A stretch of 64,000 bases of DNA from assembly GCA_024790105.1 (NCBI GenBank), contig GCA_024790105.1_3053.1. One strand, given 5' to 3'. The notes beneath the pieces are model-generated. The model was not told the origin of the DNA, ran no database searches, and saw only the letters and a list, made by a program, of their open reading frames with translations. Numbering within the stretch: the first letter of the stretch is position 1; each line of letters starts with the position of its first letter. Of this stretch, positions 34,677 through 44,511 are shown in pieces. A program made the position numbers and the translations under genes. The DNA is from a phage.

Positions 34677-35606
34677 TCAATTAGAAAATAAATTTATCCA
34701 AGATTGTTCTTTAATTAAAAATGGCTCAGAATCATATGCCATTAAACTCTGTGTGATTAGTCCTTTAAAAGGCCCATCAATAAATTCCATGGTAAAATAT
34801 GGAATTTTATTCATTAGCCGTGCATTAGGAGCAGTACACAAAACTCTGCATCCTTTGAATACGCCTTTTTGTAATTTGTATTGCTTGGGATAAAATTCGC
34901 TTAAAATGTTGTTATTTGCCAAAATTTCAAAATGATTCACCAATTTATTTTTAATAGTTTTTGGCGAAAAATAAAGATATTCGAAAAGCTGAGTGTCTGT
35001 CATCATTGCATTCCGATTACGAAAAAACTGTGGACGAGTAATACCACCAATACAACATTTAATATTACAGCAGCAGTGTACAGTGTCAATATGGACACTA
35101 TAAATCTTATCCATATCAGGAGATTTGACAGGCTCATCAATTATATACAAAATTCGCGAAAGCGATAAACCTCTGAACTTGCTTCCTTTATTACCAATAA
35201 AACTGCGCACAGAATCAGTAAATAAACGAAAACGTATATCATCATTAGAATAACGCGAAAATTCCTTTTTAATGTTATTTGCAGAAATTTTAGCGTAAGC
35301 TGAAGTATTAGAAAGAACAATAACTGTTCCACCGTCATACAACCAATTAGCGGCAAAATTAGTTACTGCAATTGATTTACCGGATTGACGTCCACCATCT
35401 ATACGAAGTGTGCAGTACTGTTTAAGTAATTCTTCAAATGGTGGGATATAATCGTTTTTACAAATTTCTTCTACTCTAGCGTCAGAATGGTGTGTAAAAG
35501 CATTCATCAGGGATAGATAAGGACCAGTTAAAAATGTTCTCATTTTATTCTCTCTAAATTTGGGCCATTCCATGGCGCATGAATTGTCCATTTCTGTATT
35601 TACCAC
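34677..35606 (-). CDS. P-loop NTPase of unknown function
   Basis: Walker A GGRQSGKS and Walker B-like LYIIDE; Cys cluster HCCCNIKCC; occupies region where T4 has vs.7/denV. Confidence 0.5.
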
Positions 35607-35655: not shown

Positions 35656-35958
35656 TTATTTATCTTTAATTACTTTAGCTGCTTCGATAGCCGCTTGCTG
35701 AAGGTCATCCATAGACATACCGAATTTAGAAGCAAAGTTATCAATTTTCTTTTCGACAGCATTCAAAGGCTTGGCCTGTTTACCTTCATTAGCGCCAGGA
35801 AGAGCGAGAATACGCTCTTTGTCAATATAAAGGCTTACAAGTTTCTTACGGTCTTTATCGGACAAATCATGAAATGAATGGGCCTTTTTATTTATAGCGG
35901 CTTCTAATTTACCTGCACTCACTCGCGCTTCAGTAATAAATTCTTGATATGTTTTCAT
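35656..35958 (-). CDS. ipII: Internal protein II-like (capsid-targeted)
   Basis: 100 aa; N-terminal MKTYQEFITEA capsid targeting sequence typical of T4 internal proteins. Confidence 0.7.
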   Translation of the reverse strand: MKTYQEFITEARVSAGKLEAAINKKAHSFHDLSDKDRKKLVSLYIDKERILALPGANEGKQAKPLNAVEKKIDNFASKFGMSMDDLQQAAIEAAKVIKDK

Positions 35959-36053: not shown

Positions 36054-37022
<969 letters not shown>

Positions 37023-38861: not shown

Positions 38862-39455
38862 TTATTTCAGAGAATTAATGTATTCCTGAACATCGGCAGA
38901 AGTGGTTTCAACCCCAGAAATATTACCGTTAAAGGTTTCAACTCGAGCAAGAGTATCTTCAATATCAACCTTAGTTAGCGCTGCGATTTCAACTACATCA
39001 TCGGCAGTACTAATTCCAAGGGCATTTGCCGCACGAGTTTCACGGATATATTCCAATTTAACTGCAAGTTCTTGGCGAGCATCATCTAACTCAACTACTT
39101 TCTTGGCGATTTCAATTCGCATTTCAGCATAACCATCAGCCTTAGTAGTCAACTGTTCAGCTGTTCGACGATATAGCAAACCGAGTTTAGCATGCATTGT
39201 TACATCTTGACCCTCGGAAAGAAGCTTGCGAATTTCACGCTCTTTTGATTCGGCTTGTCGATTCTTTTCGATAACAAGTTCACGAATACGTTTTTCTTCA
39301 TTAATAGATTTAACAGAAGCAGTTTTTAGATCTTTAATTTTATCAAGCAGTTTTGCTGCTGCAGCAGTATACTGTTCTTCAACAGATAGATTTTTAGCCA
39401 TAGCAGAACCAAGTTTAGTGCGAATAAACTCAACAATTTTCTTCAGTGTGTTCAT
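38862..39455 (-). CDS. Coiled-coil protein (PspA-like?)
   Basis: 197 aa predicted largely helical/coiled-coil; weak resemblance to PspA/IM30 by eye. Confidence 0.45.
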
Positions 39456-39556
39456 AGTATTTCCTTAGGTTAATTGAGATTTAAAATCCGTAGGAGTATA
39501 ATACTCTATCGTCAAATTATAGGCTCATAATATCTCAATCATGAGCCTGTGTAAAC

Positions 39557-39832
39557 TTATTTCATATTATTGAAATATTCTTCTGCAATTTCGTCGTTAT
39601 CATGATAAACTTTAGAAGACAGTTTAACATAACCTTCAGCAGTGAACATGTTAATCACAACCTTTACAGTATACCACTGACCGTCTTCATTACCCATTAC
39701 TGCGTAAGTTTCAAACATCGGATGGTCAGGACCGATAACTTTAATATCATTCACTGTACGACCAAAATCTTCTGAAACACATTTCATAAAGAAGTTGAAC
39801 AGTTCGCCGTAATTATCCATTTCATTCTCCAA
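39557..39832 (-). CDS. Hypothetical protein with MENEM N-terminus
   Basis: 91-aa ORF fused to the conserved cassette leader. Confidence 0.45.
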   Translation of the reverse strand: MENEMDNYGELFNFFMKCVSEDFGRTVNDIKVIGPDHPMFETYAVMGNEDGQWYTVKVVINMFTAEGYVKLSSKVYHDNDEIAEEYFNNMK

Positions 39833-39863
39833 GTTGTTTTCTGTATCAGTAGTTGATAGTTGT

Positions 39864-39893
39864 ATAGTACCATGGAAGAACAGGGATGTAAAC
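39864..39893 (-). promoter_or_regulatory. T4 early-type promoter cassette
   Basis: GTTTAC - 18 nt - TGGTACTAT. Confidence 0.5.
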
Positions 39894-40022
39894 AGTTTTG
39901 TGAAAAATTTTTTAAAAAGTTTTGGGGAATTCTAGGGCAAGGAGGGGAAATCAAAGGATAGGATAATATATTATAAAGGGTAGAAACTAAATGATGCCTA
40001 GAGAGGCCTGGAAAGGCCTAGA

Positions 40023-40058
40023 TACCAAAAAGCCCCAACCTTTTGGTCGGGGCTAAGA
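40023..40058 (-). terminator. Rho-independent terminator (copy 1 of 36-bp direct repeat)
   Basis: AGCCCCGACC-aaaa-GGTTGGGGCT hairpin followed by T5 on minus transcript. Confidence 0.6.
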
Positions 40059-40061
40059 ATG

Positions 40062-40535
40062 TTATTTGATTTGTTTAGCAGACCAAATGCGGTCTTTAAT
40101 AATTTTTTGGATGTCTTCAACATACTCTAGGTCATGAGCATGTGGGTTATCTTTAAAGCTATGAGCACGAGCTAGCTTTTGGCCTTCAGTTTTGATTACT
40201 AAAAGCTCTTTAAGGATAGCTTCATATTTGGAGATAATTCCTTTAACGATATTTTTTTCTTGTGTGACTTTAGGATCTGCTTTAGGAGCAGGTTTACCCG
40301 AAGCCTTTGCAAAAGCAGCGCCAGTAGCAACTAAACTTTTCCAGGCCATACTAACTGCATTTCCCGTAAATCCTTCCGCTTTCATGTCGCGTGCGAACTG
40401 AAATCGCGATTCATTAGAAGCATCTTTGTAAGAATATTTACCCGCTGCAATGGCTGCTTTTGCAACAGCTTGAATTTCGGTGCTAGATGCTTCATTTAAC
40501 ACCGCTTCATTTAAAAATTGAGTATATGATTTCAT
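40062..40535 (-). CDS. Internal-protein-like protein with capsid targeting sequence
   Basis: 157 aa; N-terminus MKSYTQFLNEAVLNE resembles T4 IP capsid targeting sequence plus protease site; Ala/Lys-rich. Confidence 0.5.
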   Translation of the reverse strand: MKSYTQFLNEAVLNEASSTEIQAVAKAAIAAGKYSYKDASNESRFQFARDMKAEGFTGNAVSMAWKSLVATGAAFAKASGKPAPKADPKVTQEKNIVKGIISKYEAILKELLVIKTEGQKLARAHSFKDNPHAHDLEYVEDIQKIIKDRIWSAKQIK

Positions 40536-40580
40536 CTTATTTCCTGTTTTAATTCGTGGTTTTAATATACTACTATATTT

Positions 40581-40616
40581 ATACCAAAAAGCCCCAACCT
40601 TTTGGTCGGGGCTAAG
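40581..40616 (-). terminator. Rho-independent terminator (copy 2 of 36-bp direct repeat)
   Basis: Identical hairpin and T5 as at 40023-40058. Confidence 0.6.
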
Positions 40617-40663
40617 CCTTGCGGCAACCTTGTCGGGGTTCCACCTGCTAAGGCAAGTGTTTG

Positions 40664-40757
40664 TACGAAACGCCGGGATTCGAACCCGGTTATTAAGTAG
40701 TTGACGCTACTCAATATTTTTAAAAGGCCATATCTCGACCATATCCGAACGTTCCGT
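40664..40757 (-). ncRNA. tRNA-like small stable RNA candidate (T4 species 1/2 RNA region)
   Basis: Perfect T-arm (CCGGG-TTCGAAT-CCCGG) and pairing acceptor-like ends but no canonical anticodon arm; 94 nt. Confidence 0.35.
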
Positions 40758-40929
40758 CAAAAACGCTACTCGGCTTACGGCAAAGATATTTCCTCGAATC
40801 GATAATTCGGTGCGCCGTTTCTGCTGTGATATAAGGGGACATTAACAAAACATAAAGATTTGTTAATGCCAGTCCTTAAACAGGGAACATCAGTCCGACG
40901 ACTTACCGGTAGCGACCCGGCTTCTTGTT
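40758..40929 (-). ncRNA. Structured small RNA candidate
   Basis: ORF-free segment downstream of tRNA-Arg with 10-bp hairpin (CATTAACAAA/TTTGTTAATG). Confidence 0.3.
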
Positions 40930-41006
<77 letters not shown>

Positions 41007-41009
41007 TAG

Positions 41010-41675
41010 TTAAAATTTCATTTTTCGACCTTTAAACCATCCTTCTGGAATTGGGTCAGTTTTCTTAATACGTTTAGAAACTTTTTCATCTAATGAATGA
41101 ATCCACATCATGCCAAATTGGGAATTCTTTTCACCTTGTTGGTGTTTATTTCTGGCGTGAGATTCTTTCATTTTATTAATAGTTTCAGGAGTATGGGTCT
41201 TACCCAAGAAAGATTTAGTATTTAAAAATTTCTCTCTATACTTAGGATTATCCCAAAGCTGTTTAAACCTTTCTGAACCCATTTTACGATATTTTTCTTT
41301 AAGGTCTGGGTCGTTCTCAAATCTGGTTTTAAAAGCAGCAGCCCCTTTTAAGGAAGCTTCTTTCTTTTTATCCAAATATTCTTTAGTGTTTAAATGGTCC
41401 CAACCACCTTCACCACCTAATTTCAAATTATAAACATCAGGGCGCTTTAAAAACTCTTCAGTCACAATATTCTTTTCTGACTCAAACATAGAGGTTTTAT
41501 CGTCAAAGAACTCTAATATTTCTTTAGAGAAATTTTCTATACCATACTTGTCTTGGGCTCTTTTTAATAATTTACCAGAACCCATATATCCATCATCTAA
41601 ATTTTCGGTAGAATGAGCGCCTATATAGATTTTATTATTAATTTTATTTGTTATTTTATAAGTGTAATGGAACAT
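41010..41675 (-). CDS. segB: GIY-YIG homing endonuclease SegB-like
   Basis: 221 aa; N-terminal YTYKITNKINNKIYIGAHS GIY-YIG motif; located in the tRNA cluster as T4 segB. Confidence 0.8.
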   Translation of the reverse strand: MFHYTYKITNKINNKIYIGAHSTENLDDGYMGSGKLLKRAQDKYGIENFSKEILEFFDDKTSMFESEKNIVTEEFLKRPDVYNLKLGGEGGWDHLNTKEYLDKKKEASLKGAAAFKTRFENDPDLKEKYRKMGSERFKQLWDNPKYREKFLNTKSFLGKTHTPETINKMKESHARNKHQQGEKNSQFGMMWIHSLDEKVSKRIKKTDPIPEGWFKGRKMKF

Positions 41676-41794: not shown

Positions 41795-41850
41795 TGCTGA
41801 TTGACGGAATCGAACCGCCGACATCCTCATTACAAGTGAGGTGCTCTACC
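41795..41850 (-). pseudogene. tRNA-Thr (UGU) 3' portion; 5' acceptor and D-stem replaced by HNH gene end
   Basis: Anticodon arm CCTCA-CTTGTAA-TGAGG, T-arm and 3' acceptor AATCAGC present; no complementary 5' acceptor strand; stop codon of HNH ORF overlaps D-arm. Confidence 0.5.
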
Positions 41851-42307
41851 ACGCTTCCGTTATTTTGTTTTTATATGCTCTATTCCTTGATTTATACGTA
41901 TCAAGTTGAGAGTCACAATTGGAACAAACAAATCTCAGATTTTCTAATCTATGGTCATTGTTTATTCCATTAATATGATCGAGAATTAAAGGCATTGGTT
42001 TGCCATTCCATACTGCTTCTATTCCACAGATAGAGCACTCATATGGTAATATTTTGTCTTCTATAAGTCTTTTTCTAAGATGGCTTCTGCCGTAAGAAGA
42101 ATTTTCAACCATTACATCACTAAGATTATATCTGTTGGTTTTTGGACCAGTCTTAAGTCCTTTATTCCAGATTTTGCAACCTTTTTGAGCTCCGGCTCCC
42201 TTCCCTCTCACATATTCAGCTTTATTTGGATTAAGTTTGCAATATTTTTCATGCACACTTTTTCCGCCAGCTTGTTTAAATTCTTTATTACAAAATTGAC
42301 AATTCAT
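41846..42307 (-). CDS. HNH homing endonuclease (inserted in tRNA cluster)
   Basis: 153 aa from ATG (MNCQFC); C-terminal HNH motif LDHINGINNDHRLENLRFVCSNCD; ORF track TTG extension rejected. Confidence 0.7.
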   Translation of the reverse strand: MNCQFCNKEFKQAGGKSVHEKYCKLNPNKAEYVRGKGAGAQKGCKIWNKGLKTGPKTNRYNLSDVMVENSSYGRSHLRKRLIEDKILPYECSICGIEAVWNGKPMPLILDHINGINNDHRLENLRFVCSNCDSQLDTYKSRNRAYKNKITEAW

Positions 42308-42323
42308 TATCTTCTCATTTAAT

Positions 42324-42400
42324 TGGGGTGACCGATGGGATTTGAACCTACGACATTCTGCTCCCAAAGCAGACGCTCTACCAAACTGAGCTACACGGAG
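42324..42400 (-). tRNA. tRNA-Pro (UGG)-like; 3' acceptor strand does not pair (possibly defective)
   Basis: Acceptor 5' CTCCGTG, D-arm GCTC/GAGC, anticodon arm TCTGC-TTTGGGA-GCAGA; T-stem has mismatch; 3' strand CGGTCAC not complementary to the 5' acceptor. Confidence 0.5.
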
Positions 42401-42583: not shown

Positions 42584-43192
42584 TTATTTATTACGTGAAA
42601 AAGACTGTTCTATCAATTCTGGACACTTTCGTTCTATCCATTTTCTAGCTTTTTGTGGGCTTATACCTATTATTTTAGCAGCTTTACTAACCCATCCAAA
42701 TTTAGAATAATCGATTTTAACTAATTCTTCGTAAATTTCATCAGTTAAAATCTTTTCATTAATATTTACCAGTAAATGATATAATTTGTTATCATTAGCA
42801 ATTTTAATGAATCTTTTATAGTTTCCGCCTTTACTTAAACCTAATGAAGTAATTGCAGATGATATAGTAGCCGAATTTAATAATGCGTTTAAAATTTCTT
42901 CATCACTAACATTATAACGCTTTTTATTATTTTTAATATTTTTACCAGCAAAAGTATCAGTTTGCGAGTGACAGTTTGGACATAATAATCTTAAATTTGA
43001 TTTAAGATGATTTTTGTTATTTCCATCAATATGGTCTAATTGCAGAACAATATGCTTATTTTGCCATTTTGAAATTTTACAAATTGCACACTCATATGGA
43101 AAAATATTTTCTTTTATTATTTTGTCTTTCAGCTTTCCTGTGCTAAAATTTGGGTGTTTTCCTTCAAAAATTTCAGCTAATTTAGTATCCAT
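42584..43192 (-). CDS. HNH homing endonuclease with C-terminal helix-turn-helix-like domain
   Basis: HNH motif LDHIDGNNKNHLKSNLRLLCPNCH; paralogous core to ORF 41846-42307; start set at ATG (ORF track begins at upstream TTG). Confidence 0.7.
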   Translation of the reverse strand: MDTKLAEIFEGKHPNFSTGKLKDKIIKENIFPYECAICKISKWQNKHIVLQLDHIDGNNKNHLKSNLRLLCPNCHSQTDTFAGKNIKNNKKRYNVSDEEILNALLNSATISSAITSLGLSKGGNYKRFIKIANDNKLYHLLVNINEKILTDEIYEELVKIDYSKFGWVSKAAKIIGISPQKARKWIERKCPELIEQSFSRNK

Positions 43193-43302
43193 AATATGAT
43201 TCCCAATTATTAACAAAGGCTCTCAAGCAAGAACCCTTGATGATAGAGGGTATTAATCAGTGCGATATGAGTTAATAATAACAAATAATTCTTAAAGCAT
43301 AT

Positions 43303-44253: not shown

Positions 44254-44511
44254 TTATTTTAAATCTTCTAATCGTTTCTTCATCTTAGAACCATTTTTAG
44301 CAATTTCTCCTGCATCGGAGCATAATGCTAAAAGTGCTTTAACTTTAGTTTGGTCTCCTTTAAAAGATGAAGGATCGACTGCAGCAGCAAGTTCTTTAAT
44401 ACGAGAGAAAAGACGCTCAGCTTCAGCTAAAGCCATTCCAAGCTTTACTTCCATGCCATGAGAAGATTCAGTAATAGTAGTTTTTGTAGCAAACTCTTTG
44501 AAAGTTTTCAT
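44254..44511 (-). CDS. ipI: Internal protein I-like (capsid-targeted small protein)
   Basis: 85 aa; N-terminus MKTFKEFATKTTITE resembles IP capsid targeting sequence; adjacent to 57B as T4 ipI. Confidence 0.55.
   Translation of the reverse strand: MKTFKEFATKTTITESSHGMEVKLGMALAEAERLFSRIKELAAAVDPSSFKGDQTKVKALLALCSDAGEIAKNGSKMKKRLEDLK

What the first reader, a model, noticed from the sequence alone, without database searches (positions are those of the whole stretch)
40023..40616. Internal-protein-like gene relocated next to the tRNA cluster and flanked by a duplicated 36-bp terminator
ORF 40062-40535 begins MKSYTQFLNEAVLNE, which resembles the capsid targeting sequence and prohead protease site of T4 internal proteins, yet it lies beside the tRNA/small RNA region rather than at the ipII-ipIII locus next to e. 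It is bracketed by two identical copies of ATACCAAAAAGCCCCAACCTTTTGGTCGGGGCTAAG (40023-40058 and 40581-40616), each a hairpin plus T5 terminator on the minus strand. Between the lower terminator copy and the downstream promoter cassette lies a ~100-nt GC-containing spacer (39921-40022) that carries an EcoRI site and two StuI sites. This looks like a cassette insertion delivering a candidate injected protein, possibly an anti-defence factor.
Basis: partly seen in the sequence, partly recalled or inferred. Interest (0 to 1): 0.6.

Follow-up and report, generated by a model that had tools for sequence, protein, structure and literature searches.

The report
Unannotated internal-protein gene cassette in T4-like phage
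A small, self-contained late gene that is present in about 500 T4-like phage genomes but missing from T4 itself very probably encodes a protein that is packed into the phage head and injected with the DNA, which makes it a new candidate inhibitor of bacterial defences; it has never been named or tested.

Summary
ORF 40062-40535 (minus strand, 157 aa) is bracketed by two identical 36-nt hairpin+T5 terminators.

The window is a Tequatrovirus. T4, T2, T6 and PST have an empty site with one terminator copy, so the unit is a 559-bp indel cassette. The EcoRI/StuI spacer is shared with T4 and lies outside the cassette.

- **N-terminus:** MKSYTQFLNE|AVLNE|A carries all four residues shown experimentally to drive capsid targeting (4, 7) and prohead-protease processing (8, 10) of T4 IPIII. 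These residues are kept across divergent homologues.
- **Promoter:** a perfect late promoter, TATAAATA, abuts the upper terminator.
- **Selection and properties:** the gene is under purifying selection (dN/dS 0.05-0.18). The predicted mature protein is basic (pI 9.6), like known internal proteins.
- **Second cassette:** in other phages a second targeting-sequence gene occupies the same slot.
- **Annotation:** every record examined calls the gene "hypothetical".

"Relocated" is misleading. T4 ipI also lies by the tRNA cluster, and this is a third, syntenic locus found in several genera.

Packaging, cleavage and anti-defence function are inferred, not shown.

Verdict: new member of a known kind; interest 0.5.

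The parts
40581..40616 (-). Upper copy of the 36-nt repeat. It is the intrinsic terminator (hairpin 40590-40613, then U5) that ends the tRNA / rnaD / rnaC transcription unit. Its last three bases (TAT on the minus strand) form the start of the late promoter.
   Evidence: Exact repeat. Terminator scan and fold, -24.1 kcal/mol. Homologous to the single T4 copy at 70825-70859.
40576..40583 (-). T4-type late promoter TATAAATA (gp55-dependent consensus), 40 nt upstream of the ATG and directly abutting the terminator.
   Evidence: There are only 9 such octamers on the minus strand of the 64-kb window. The octamer is perfect in RB32, fPS-90, HMD-9 and Klebsiella phage AM_K6, and 7/8 in Mosigvirus and Marfavirus. 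The fPS-90 annotators also predicted a late promoter here.
40542..40545 (-). Shine-Dalgarno AGGA, 6 nt before the ATG.
   Evidence: Read directly from the sequence.
40062..40535 (-). Coding sequence of 157 aa (stop codon included). Predicted layout: propeptide, three-helix N-domain (about 18-75), Lys/Pro-rich linker (76-87), helical hairpin (88-155).
   Evidence: dN/dS 0.05-0.18. phrog_2280, unknown function. Found in 512 phage records.
40491..40535 (-). Codons 1-15, the predicted capsid targeting sequence and propeptide MKSYTQFLNE|AVLNE|A. Two L-x-E sites lie after E10 and E15. E15 is the site conserved throughout the family.
   Evidence: M1, Y4, F7 and E15 are invariant in alignment A1. They match the IPIII determinants. 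pLDDT is below 50 for residues 1-15. The motif scan finds only ipII and this ORF.
40022..40057 (-). Lower copy of the 36-nt repeat. It terminates the cassette's late transcript (hairpin 40031-40054, then U5) and insulates e.8.
39864..40021 (-). Context, not part of the cassette. This is the spacer shared with T4 (EcoRI 39927, StuI 40004 and 40014) together with the early-type promoter of e.8 (TTTACA-17-TACTAT, 39892-39864).
   Evidence: 95.5% identical to T4. Promoter scan. Restriction sites.
40664..40925 (-). Context: homologues of T4 rnaC (40664-40802, 99.3% identity) and rnaD (40809-40925, 85.6% identity) immediately upstream of the cassette. tRNA-Arg follows at 40930-41006.

Best explanation
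The ORF encodes a previously unnamed T4-type internal head protein (an "Ip"), carried on an autonomous late-transcription cassette at a third ip locus just downstream of the tRNA/rnaD/rnaC unit.

**Proposed mechanism**
1. Early and middle transcripts of the tRNA operon stop at the upper terminator (shown: terminator structure).
2. Late in infection, gp55-RNA polymerase starts at the TATAAATA that abuts that terminator. The transcript ends at the lower terminator copy (shown: motifs; inferred: use).
3. The N-terminal MKSYTQFLNE acts as a capsid targeting sequence that brings the protein into the scaffolding core of the prohead (inferred from matching the experimentally defined determinants).
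4. The gp21 prohead protease removes the propeptide at L-N-E10|A and/or L-N-E15|A. This leaves a mature protein of about 15.5 kDa with pI 9.6 inside the DNA-filled head (inferred).
5. The mature protein is injected with the DNA and acts at the very start of infection. Its most likely role is to inhibit a host nuclease that attacks modified T-even DNA, as do all four targeting-sequence proteins with a known function (inference by analogy; about 0.4-0.5 on its own).

The duplicated terminator lets the cassette be lost or gained by homologous recombination, which explains the empty site in T4, T2, T6 and PST. The confidence given here refers to steps 1-4, that is, a packaged and processed head protein.
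For: **Targeting sequence**
- Y4 and F7 (targeting) and L8 and E10 (processing, L/I-x-E) all match the residues defined by mutagenesis of IPIII. The 10-residue sequence alone suffices to package foreign proteins (PMC9026906).
- M1, Y4, F7 and the cleavage Glu are invariant in a family alignment whose members are as little as 40% identical to the window protein.
- Homologues from other genera keep the motif: MKTYNEFLMTE|A, MKSYAEFLTE|Q, MLKFNEFLAE|G, MKFKEFLIE|A.
- Among 916 candidate starts in the window, only ipII and this ORF fit the pattern. No hit was found in 100 shuffles. A looser pattern adds only the Ip5 gene at the ipI locus.

**Expression**
- A perfect TATAAATA lies 40 nt upstream and is conserved across phages.

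**Protein properties**
- Residues 1-15 are predicted to be disordered.
- The mature protein is small and basic, pI 9.6. Named Ips range from 8.2 to 9.65.

**Real gene**
- dN/dS is 0.05-0.18.

**Accessory and cassette behaviour, as at the ipI locus**
- T4, T2, T6 and PST have an empty site.
- RB32 annotators noted the flanking repeat here, and also a 43-bp repeat around Ip7/Ip9.
- A second gene starting MKTYAEFLTE|A occupies the same slot in fPS-90, HMD-9 and RB69. It belongs to the same PHROG family.

**Functional analogy**
- Ip1, Ip2 and Ip3 each block a different GmrSD enzyme (PMC12373910).
- Bas37_0260, related only through the targeting sequence, blocks McrBC.
Against: - There is no direct evidence of virion association, cleavage or injection. 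I found no virion proteome that covers this protein.
- Named ip genes in T4 and RB32 are preceded by early-type promoters and lack TATAAATA. This gene's late-only design differs from theirs.
- Positions 3, 5, 6 and 9 differ from the T4 sequence (S, T, Q, N against T, Q, E, A).
- The mature part resembles no named Ip, and the fold search returns only generic helical hairpins. Nothing therefore points to a target.
- An internal L-K-E motif at residues 108-110 could also be cut.
Confidence: 0.7

Rival explanations
1. The protein is packaged and processed but works inside the head, in scaffold-core assembly, head-size control or DNA condensation, rather than as an injected anti-defence factor. IPIII mutants of T4 show head-assembly aberrations of this kind.
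For: - Late-only expression matches structural genes better than the early-plus-late pattern of the named ip genes.
- The protein is Lys-rich and basic with long helices, which fits DNA contact.
- The C-terminal domain is highly conserved (dN 0.02-0.04), which is unlike a fast-evolving inhibitor.
- IPIII is implicated in head morphogenesis (PMC9026906).
Against: - The gene is dispensable: T4, T2, T6 and PST lack it.
- Its presence or absence varies among near-identical genomes, as is typical of accessory counter-defence genes.
- The N-domain is divergent and mosaic (dN 0.21-0.28; dS saturated against 0.24 in the C-domain).
- All four targeting-sequence proteins with assigned functions are restriction inhibitors.
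Confidence: 0.2
2. The protein is late-expressed but not packaged, for example a lysis-timing, superinfection or host-modifying factor. Its N-terminal likeness to the targeting sequence would then be non-functional, arising from shared ancestry of a 5' gene segment or from selection on the translation-initiation region (the AAA second codon).
For: - Only 6 of the first 11 residues are identical to the T4 IPII/IPIII N-terminus MKTYQEFIAEA.
- The promoter type and the locus differ from those of the named ip genes.
- No proteomic support was found.
Against: - The conserved positions are exactly the functional ones (4, 7, 8, and the Glu), not only the first codons.
- They persist in genera where the rest of the protein has diverged to 40-50% identity or has a different C-terminal domain.
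- The propeptide varies in length but always ends in L/M-x-E.
- The 10-residue sequence is sufficient for packaging in T4.
Confidence: 0.1
3. The ORF is a chance or decaying reading frame between two terminators.
For: Some genomes carry frameshifted or truncated copies: SfPhi01, KpV477 and the P0006-P0008 fragments.
Against: - Full-length copies (at least 80% of the query) occur in 468 of 512 records.
- dN/dS is 0.05-0.18 with many synonymous changes.
- The Shine-Dalgarno sequence and the promoter are conserved.
- The model has a confident N-domain, pLDDT 86-92.
Confidence: 0.01

Closest known systems
T-even internal proteins: IPI, IPII and IPIII of T4, and Ip4-Ip9 of T2, T6, RB and PST phages (Repoila et al. 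1994, as cited in PMC12373910)
   Same: - An N-terminal capsid targeting sequence ending in an L/I-x-E protease site.
- Small and basic.
- Non-essential, with patchy distribution among close relatives.
- The gene is flanked by short direct repeats.
- The mature part is unrelated to other Ips, which is also true of the Ips among themselves.
   Different: - It sits at a third locus, between the rnaC terminator and e.8, not beside 57B or e.
- It is driven by a consensus late promoter placed behind a terminator, instead of an early-type promoter.
- The propeptide has two tandem L-N-E sites.
- The protein has two helical domains.
- It is never annotated as an Ip, and there are no experimental data.
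Bas37_0260, a McrBC inhibitor at the ipI locus of a T4 relative (bioRxiv 10.1101/2025.11.20.689424)
   Same: It is a newly recognised protein that shares only the N-terminal signal with IPI-III. This shows that unnamed targeting-sequence proteins can be type IV restriction inhibitors.
   Different: It lies at the classical ipI locus and has genetic proof of function.
PeSL (promoter-early stem-loop) mobile regulatory cassettes of T4-like phages (Arbiol 2010; Comeau 2014, PMC4122927)
   Same: Repeated stem-loop and regulatory motifs bracket variable ORFs in hyperplastic regions. Recombination between the copies explains gain or loss of the intervening gene by excision or integration of a mini-circle.
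   Different: The repeated element here is the terminator alone (36 nt). The promoter fused to the upper copy is a late TATAAATA, not a sigma-70-like early promoter. It is better described as a "late-promoter stem-loop" arrangement.
The second cassette of the same slot (fPS-90 g135c, HMD-9, RB69 ORF149c/148c)
   Same: - Same slot.
- Same N-terminal type (MKTYAEFLTE|A).
- Same PHROG family (phrog_2280).
- A basic mature protein (pI 9.5).
- Followed by its own hairpin terminator.
- Annotated "hypothetical" in every record examined.
   Different: - Pairwise BLAST detects only the first 11 residues.
- It is 187 aa long.
- Its upstream motif is AATAAATA (7/8).
- It is absent from this window.

Membership tests
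T4-type internal head proteins (Ip) | N-terminal capsid targeting sequence with the experimentally defined determinants: aromatic residue at position 4 and Phe at 7 for targeting. | tested here: met
   The sequence is M-K-S-Y4-T-Q-F7. Y4 and F7 are invariant in family alignment A1. The determinants are taken from PMC9026906. The motif is found only in ipII and this ORF within the window.
T4-type internal head proteins (Ip) | The propeptide ends in a gp21 prohead-protease site, L/I-x-E followed by a small residue (positions 8 and 10 in IPIII). | tested here: met
   L8-N-E10|A and L13-N-E15|A are both present. The Glu aligned with E15 is invariant. This is a sequence match only; cleavage itself was not observed.
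T4-type internal head proteins (Ip) | The protein is physically present in proheads and virions, is N-terminally processed, and is injected with the DNA. | not testable with these tools
   No virion proteome covering this protein was found. The fPS paper has no proteomics. The Jiaodavirus mass-spectrometry supplements were truncated when stored and contain no matching peptides.
T4-type internal head proteins (Ip) | Dispensable and patchily distributed among close relatives, with the gene bounded by short repeats. | tested here: met
   Absent from T4, T2, T6 and PST, which have a clean empty site. Present in 512 phage records. Flanked by an exact 36-nt repeat. RB32 notes comparable repeats around Ip7/Ip9.
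T4-type internal head proteins (Ip) | Small basic mature protein. | tested here: met
   142 aa, 15.5 kDa, pI 9.61. Eight named Ips range from 8.17 to 9.65.
T4-type internal head proteins (Ip) | Located at one of the two classical ip loci (beside 57B or beside e) with an early-type promoter. This is customary rather than defining. | tested here: not met
   The gene lies between the rnaC terminator and e.8. It has a late TATAAATA, whereas the named ip genes have GTTTAC...TA..AT promoters and no TATAAATA.
Type IV restriction inhibitors delivered as Ips (IPI*, Ip2, Ip3, Bas37_0260) | Inhibits a GmrSD or McrBC-type nuclease, and loss of the gene gives a host-specific plating defect. | not testable with these tools
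PeSL cassettes | A stem-loop immediately followed by a sigma-70-like early promoter and Shine-Dalgarno sequence, repeated on both sides of the variable ORF. | tested here: not met
   The stem-loop is repeated. However, the upper copy is followed by a late promoter. The lower copy is followed only about 130 nt later by the e.8 early promoter.

The most novel reading that the evidence does not exclude
T-even phages have a third, previously unrecognised internal-protein locus downstream of the tRNA/rnaC-rnaD unit. It holds zero, one or two late-promoter cassettes of a single two-domain family (phrog_2280). These packaged proteins would neutralise a host defence other than the GmrSD and McrBC targets known so far. 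The divergent, mosaic N-domain would recognise the target, and the conserved C-terminal hairpin would provide a common activity or a packaging or DNA-binding function.
Probability: 0.3. Interest if true: 0.7.

Novelty: new member of a known kind. Interest (0 to 1): 0.5.

Why it matters
Internal proteins are the only phage counter-defence factors that are already present when the DNA enters the cell. In 2025 all three T4 Ips and one new targeting-sequence protein were shown to be subtype-specific inhibitors of type IV restriction enzymes.

A widespread family with the same targeting sequence, found in about 500 genomes and several genera and always labelled "hypothetical", is therefore a ready-made candidate for a further inhibitor. 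The classical phages T2, T4 and T6 naturally lack it, which gives clean gain-of-function test beds.

The cassette is compact: terminator, late promoter, Shine-Dalgarno sequence, targeting-sequence ORF, terminator. It shows how such genes can be plugged in and out without disturbing neighbouring early transcription. The slot's four states (empty, A, B, A+B) extend the picture of ip-gene shuffling beyond the two known loci.

Tried and rejected
**Searches that returned nothing useful**
- Pfam, NCBIfam and PDB sequence searches found nothing significant.
- The exhaustive representative search gave 12 hits. Four large proteins (P0016-P0019) match through repeated "AAGSYSYKA"-like motifs inside Ig-like or cadherin repeats. 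I treat these as spurious additive matches, not homologues.

**Literature**
- No paper in the held library names this ORF or this locus as an ip locus.
- Repoila 1994 is not held.
- The fPS phage paper has no proteomics. The primary paper on fHe-Yen9-01 is not held.
- The Jiaodavirus virion mass-spectrometry supplements were truncated when stored and show no peptides of the homologue. This is inconclusive, not negative.

**Ideas considered and dropped**
- That the EcoRI/StuI spacer is part of the insertion: rejected, because it is shared with T4.
- That the ORF is a paralogue of Ip4, which is also 157 aa: rejected, because there is no similarity beyond the N-terminus.
- That the in-frame stop in the KpV477 homologue is a programmed feature: rejected, because the close relative AM_K6 has AAA (Lys) at that position and an intact 177-aa gene.

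Full report
**1. What is in the sequence**

The window is a T4-like (Tequatrovirus) genome segment. A 1.6-kb query around the finding matches 791 phage records at 90-98% identity.

On the minus strand the gene order is:
- e.6 (38862-39455)
- e.8 (39557-39832)
- the ORF (40062-40535)
- homologues of T4 rnaC (40664-40802) and rnaD (40809-40925)
- tRNA-Arg (40930-41006)
- segB (41010-41675), followed by further tRNAs

The ORF encodes 157 aa beginning MKSYTQFLNEAVLNEASS.

On the minus strand each copy folds into a 10-bp, G+C-rich hairpin with a 4-nt loop followed by U5, at -20 to -24 kcal/mol with z about -3.7. The EcoRI site (39927) and the two StuI sites (40004, 40014) exist.

**2. The cassette and its boundaries**

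Alignment with T4 (NC_000866) gives two blocks:
- window 39518-40056 equals T4 70321-70859 (95.5% identity)
- window 40581-40933 equals T4 70825-71176 (92.9% identity)

The two blocks overlap in T4 by exactly one terminator. T4 therefore has an empty site. It carries the left flank of the upper copy, one terminator, and the right flank of the lower copy. T2 and T6 show the same empty-site junction in their sequence, and PST has no ORF annotated in the slot.

The window carries a 559-bp unit consisting of promoter, ORF and a second terminator copy. The "GC-containing spacer" with the restriction sites is ordinary e.8-upstream DNA shared with T4. It contains the e.8 early-type promoter (TTTACA-17-TACTAT) and is not part of the cassette. 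T4 lacks both StuI sites, so they carry no conserved meaning.

The RB32 annotators had already written "flanked by 34 bp imperfect direct repeat" on the 97%-identical ORF133c, but still called it hypothetical.

**3.

On the minus strand the upper terminator runs straight into GGGGCTTTTTGG-TATAAATA-TAG, then about 30 nt, then AGGAAATAAG-ATG. TATAAATA is the consensus T4 late promoter (established knowledge).

There are only 9 copies on this strand of the 64-kb window. Conservation of the octamer at the same position is as follows:

| Phage or genus | Octamer |
|---|---|
| RB32, fPS-90, HMD-9 | perfect |
| Klebsiella phage AM_K6 | perfect |
| Mosigvirus O157tp3 | AATAAATA (7/8) |
| Marfavirus PhiKpNIH-6 | CATAAATA (7/8) |

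The fPS-90 annotators independently marked a late promoter there.

By contrast, T4 ipI, ipII and ipIII and RB32 Ip4, Ip5, Ip7 and Ip9 are all preceded by early-type GTTTAC...TA..AT promoters. None has TATAAATA within 110 nt.

The unit is therefore a self-contained late transcription unit. One copy of the terminator insulates it from the early tRNA operon. The other copy insulates the early e.8 gene from it.

**4. Is the N-terminus a capsid targeting sequence?**

The Black-lab experiments are summarised in PMC9026906. They show that the first 10 residues of IPIII (MKTYQEFIAE) suffice to package foreign proteins. Targeting depends mainly on residues 4 and 7, and processing depends on residues 8 and 10. 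The gp21 protease cuts after L/I-x-E.

The ORF has Y4, F7, L8 and E10, followed by Ala, and then a second L-N-E|A ending at E15.

In a family alignment whose members are as little as 40% identical to the window protein, the invariant N-terminal residues are M1, Y4, F7 and the Glu aligned with E15. More distant relatives keep the pattern while everything around it changes:
- MKTYNEFLMTE|A
- MKSYAEFLTE|Q
- MLEYSEFLKELFCE|A
- MLKFNEFLAE|G
- MKFKEFLIE|A

Of 916 possible starts with at least 50 codons in the window, only ipII (35656-35958) and this ORF match ^M..[YF]..F[IL].E. No match appeared in 100 shuffles. A looser pattern adds only the Ip5-type gene at the ipI locus (44254-44511). In 26 kb of the Klebsiella phage KpV477, the only two matches are the Ip4 homologue next to lysozyme and the homologue of this ORF.

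AlphaFold2 (mean pLDDT 72.8) leaves residues 1-15 unstructured. It then predicts:
- a confident three-helix domain, residues 18-75, pLDDT 86-92
- a Lys/Pro-rich linker
- a long helical hairpin, residues 88-155

Cut at E15, the mature protein would be 142 aa, 15.5 kDa, pI 9.61. Eight named Ips span pI 8.17-9.65.

**5. It is a real, selected, accessory gene with a conserved address**

dN/dS against orthologues is 0.05-0.18. The N-domain is much more diverged (dN 0.21-0.28) than the C-domain (dN 0.02-0.04). Between the window and HMD-9, dS is saturated in the N-domain but only 0.24 in the C-domain. This indicates recombination inside the gene.

tblastn finds the gene in 512 phage records, 468 of them nearly full length. 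It lies just downstream of the tRNA cluster (with rnaC/rnaD where these are recognisable) in every genus examined:
- Tequatrovirus
- Mosigvirus
- Jiaodavirus
- Marfavirus
- Winklervirus

"Relocated" is the wrong word for two reasons. T4 ipI already lies next to the tRNA cluster, on its upstream side (73591-73878). The mature part of this protein also resembles no named Ip (distinct PHROGs).

**6. The slot hosts a second gene of the same kind**

In fPS-90 and HMD-9 the slot holds two cassettes separated by hairpin terminators. The second gene (187 aa) starts MKTYAEFLTE|A and has a predicted mature pI of 9.5. It occurs in 165 phage records, annotated "hypothetical" in every row shown. RB69 carries it alone, frameshifted in the reference sequence as ORF149c/148c.

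Pairwise BLAST sees only the first 11 residues in common with the window ORF. Both proteins nonetheless match phrog_2280 over their full lengths, at E = 4e-59 and 2e-53.

The slot therefore exists in four states: empty, A, B and A+B. This is the behaviour described for the ipI locus.

**7. What it most likely does**

Shown here:
- the terminators
- the late-promoter motif
- the targeting-sequence and protease-site motifs and their conservation
- purifying selection
- dispensability

Inferred:
- late transcription
- targeting into the prohead core
- removal of the 10- or 15-residue propeptide by gp21
- residence in the DNA-filled head
- injection

The functional class is inferred from analogy. 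Ip1, Ip2 and Ip3 each inhibit a different GmrSD type IV restriction enzyme (PMC12373910). Bas37_0260, an ipI-locus protein that shares only the N-terminal signal, inhibits McrBC (bioRxiv 10.1101/2025.11.20.689424).

My estimates are about 0.7 that the protein is a packaged, processed head protein, and about 0.4-0.5 that it is an injected anti-defence factor.

The rival readings are:
- a head-internal assembly or DNA-condensation role
- a non-packaged late protein with a vestigial N-terminus
- a spurious ORF, which the selection data exclude

**8. Comparison with what is known, and novelty**

The gene meets every sequence-level criterion of the Ip class that can be tested here. It fails only the customary criteria, locus and early promoter, which are not defining. 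The decisive criteria, presence in virions, cleavage and injection, cannot be tested with these tools.

It resembles PeSL-mediated cassette shuffling (PMC4122927), but it is not a PeSL. The repeat is the terminator alone, and the attached promoter is late.

No annotation among the 512 records sampled, and no cluster-member name, calls it anything but hypothetical. No paper in the searchable library describes it. Repoila 1994 and Comeau and Krisch 2005 could not be read, so earlier mention cannot be fully excluded.

I file it as a new member of a known kind. It is a useful, testable lead rather than a surprise, because Ip diversity is well known. Interest: 0.5.

Noticed in passing
window 41803-41855, 41846-42367 and 42333-42395 (minus strand): Two partial tRNA matches (Rfam model positions 9-63 at 29 bits and 6-65 at 45 bits) overlap the two ends of a 173-aa HNH-type ORF that lies between tRNA-Ile and tRNA-Gly. 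T4 has Thr, Ser and Pro tRNA genes there. It looks as though a homing-endonuclease gene has replaced or split tRNA genes.
   Followed up: no
window 42584-43216 (minus strand): A second HNH-like ORF (210 aa) sits where T4, T6 and RB32 have tRNA-Gln. ARAGORN finds only four tRNAs in the window.
   Followed up: no
L003:1051-1614 (fPS-90 g135c), L007:2100-2663 (HMD-9), L012:11429-11991 (RB69 ORF148c/149c): A second unannotated gene with a capsid targeting sequence (MKTYAEFLTE|A, 187 aa, same phrog_2280) occupies the same slot in 165 phage records. The RB69 reference copy is frameshifted into two overlapping ORFs.
   Followed up: partly
L008:2495-3030 (Klebsiella phage KpV477): The homologue carries an in-frame TAA after residue 78, and the homologous reading frame continues beyond it. 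The related phage AM_K6 has AAA (Lys) there and an intact 177-aa gene. The stop is therefore a nonsense mutation or a sequencing error, not a designed stop.
   Followed up: yes
window 35656-35958, 36054-36548, 44254-44511: This phage has ipII directly next to e, with no ipIII. It has an Ip5-type gene (MKTFKEFATKTTITE...) at the ipI locus. It also lacks e.7.
   Followed up: partly
window 34677-35606 (minus strand): A 309-aa ORF lies immediately downstream of ipII, where T4 has the 138-aa denV gene. It was not identified.
   Followed up: no
L004:1915-2265 (F1 gp140), L010:7003-7353 (T2), L012:12421-12765 (RB69 ORF150c), L006:1772-1900 (truncated): An optional ORF of about 115 aa (MKGNVYLVVHDLTFYFNE...) is inserted next to tRNA-Arg, in the rnaC/rnaD area, in several relatives. 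It is absent from this window and from T4.
   Followed up: no
window 40062-40535 compared with L007 and L006: The gene is mosaic. Between the window and HMD-9, synonymous divergence is saturated in codons 17-80 but only 0.24 in codons 81-157. This implies recombination within the gene and a faster-evolving N-domain.
   Followed up: partly
P0009, P0015, L013:698-1231, L014:701-1234, L015:1444-2007: Homologues in Yersinia, Klebsiella and Serratia phages keep the targeting sequence and the N-domain but carry a different, longer C-terminal domain ending ...VGDVGRHYKKL. This suggests domain swapping within the family.
   Followed up: partly
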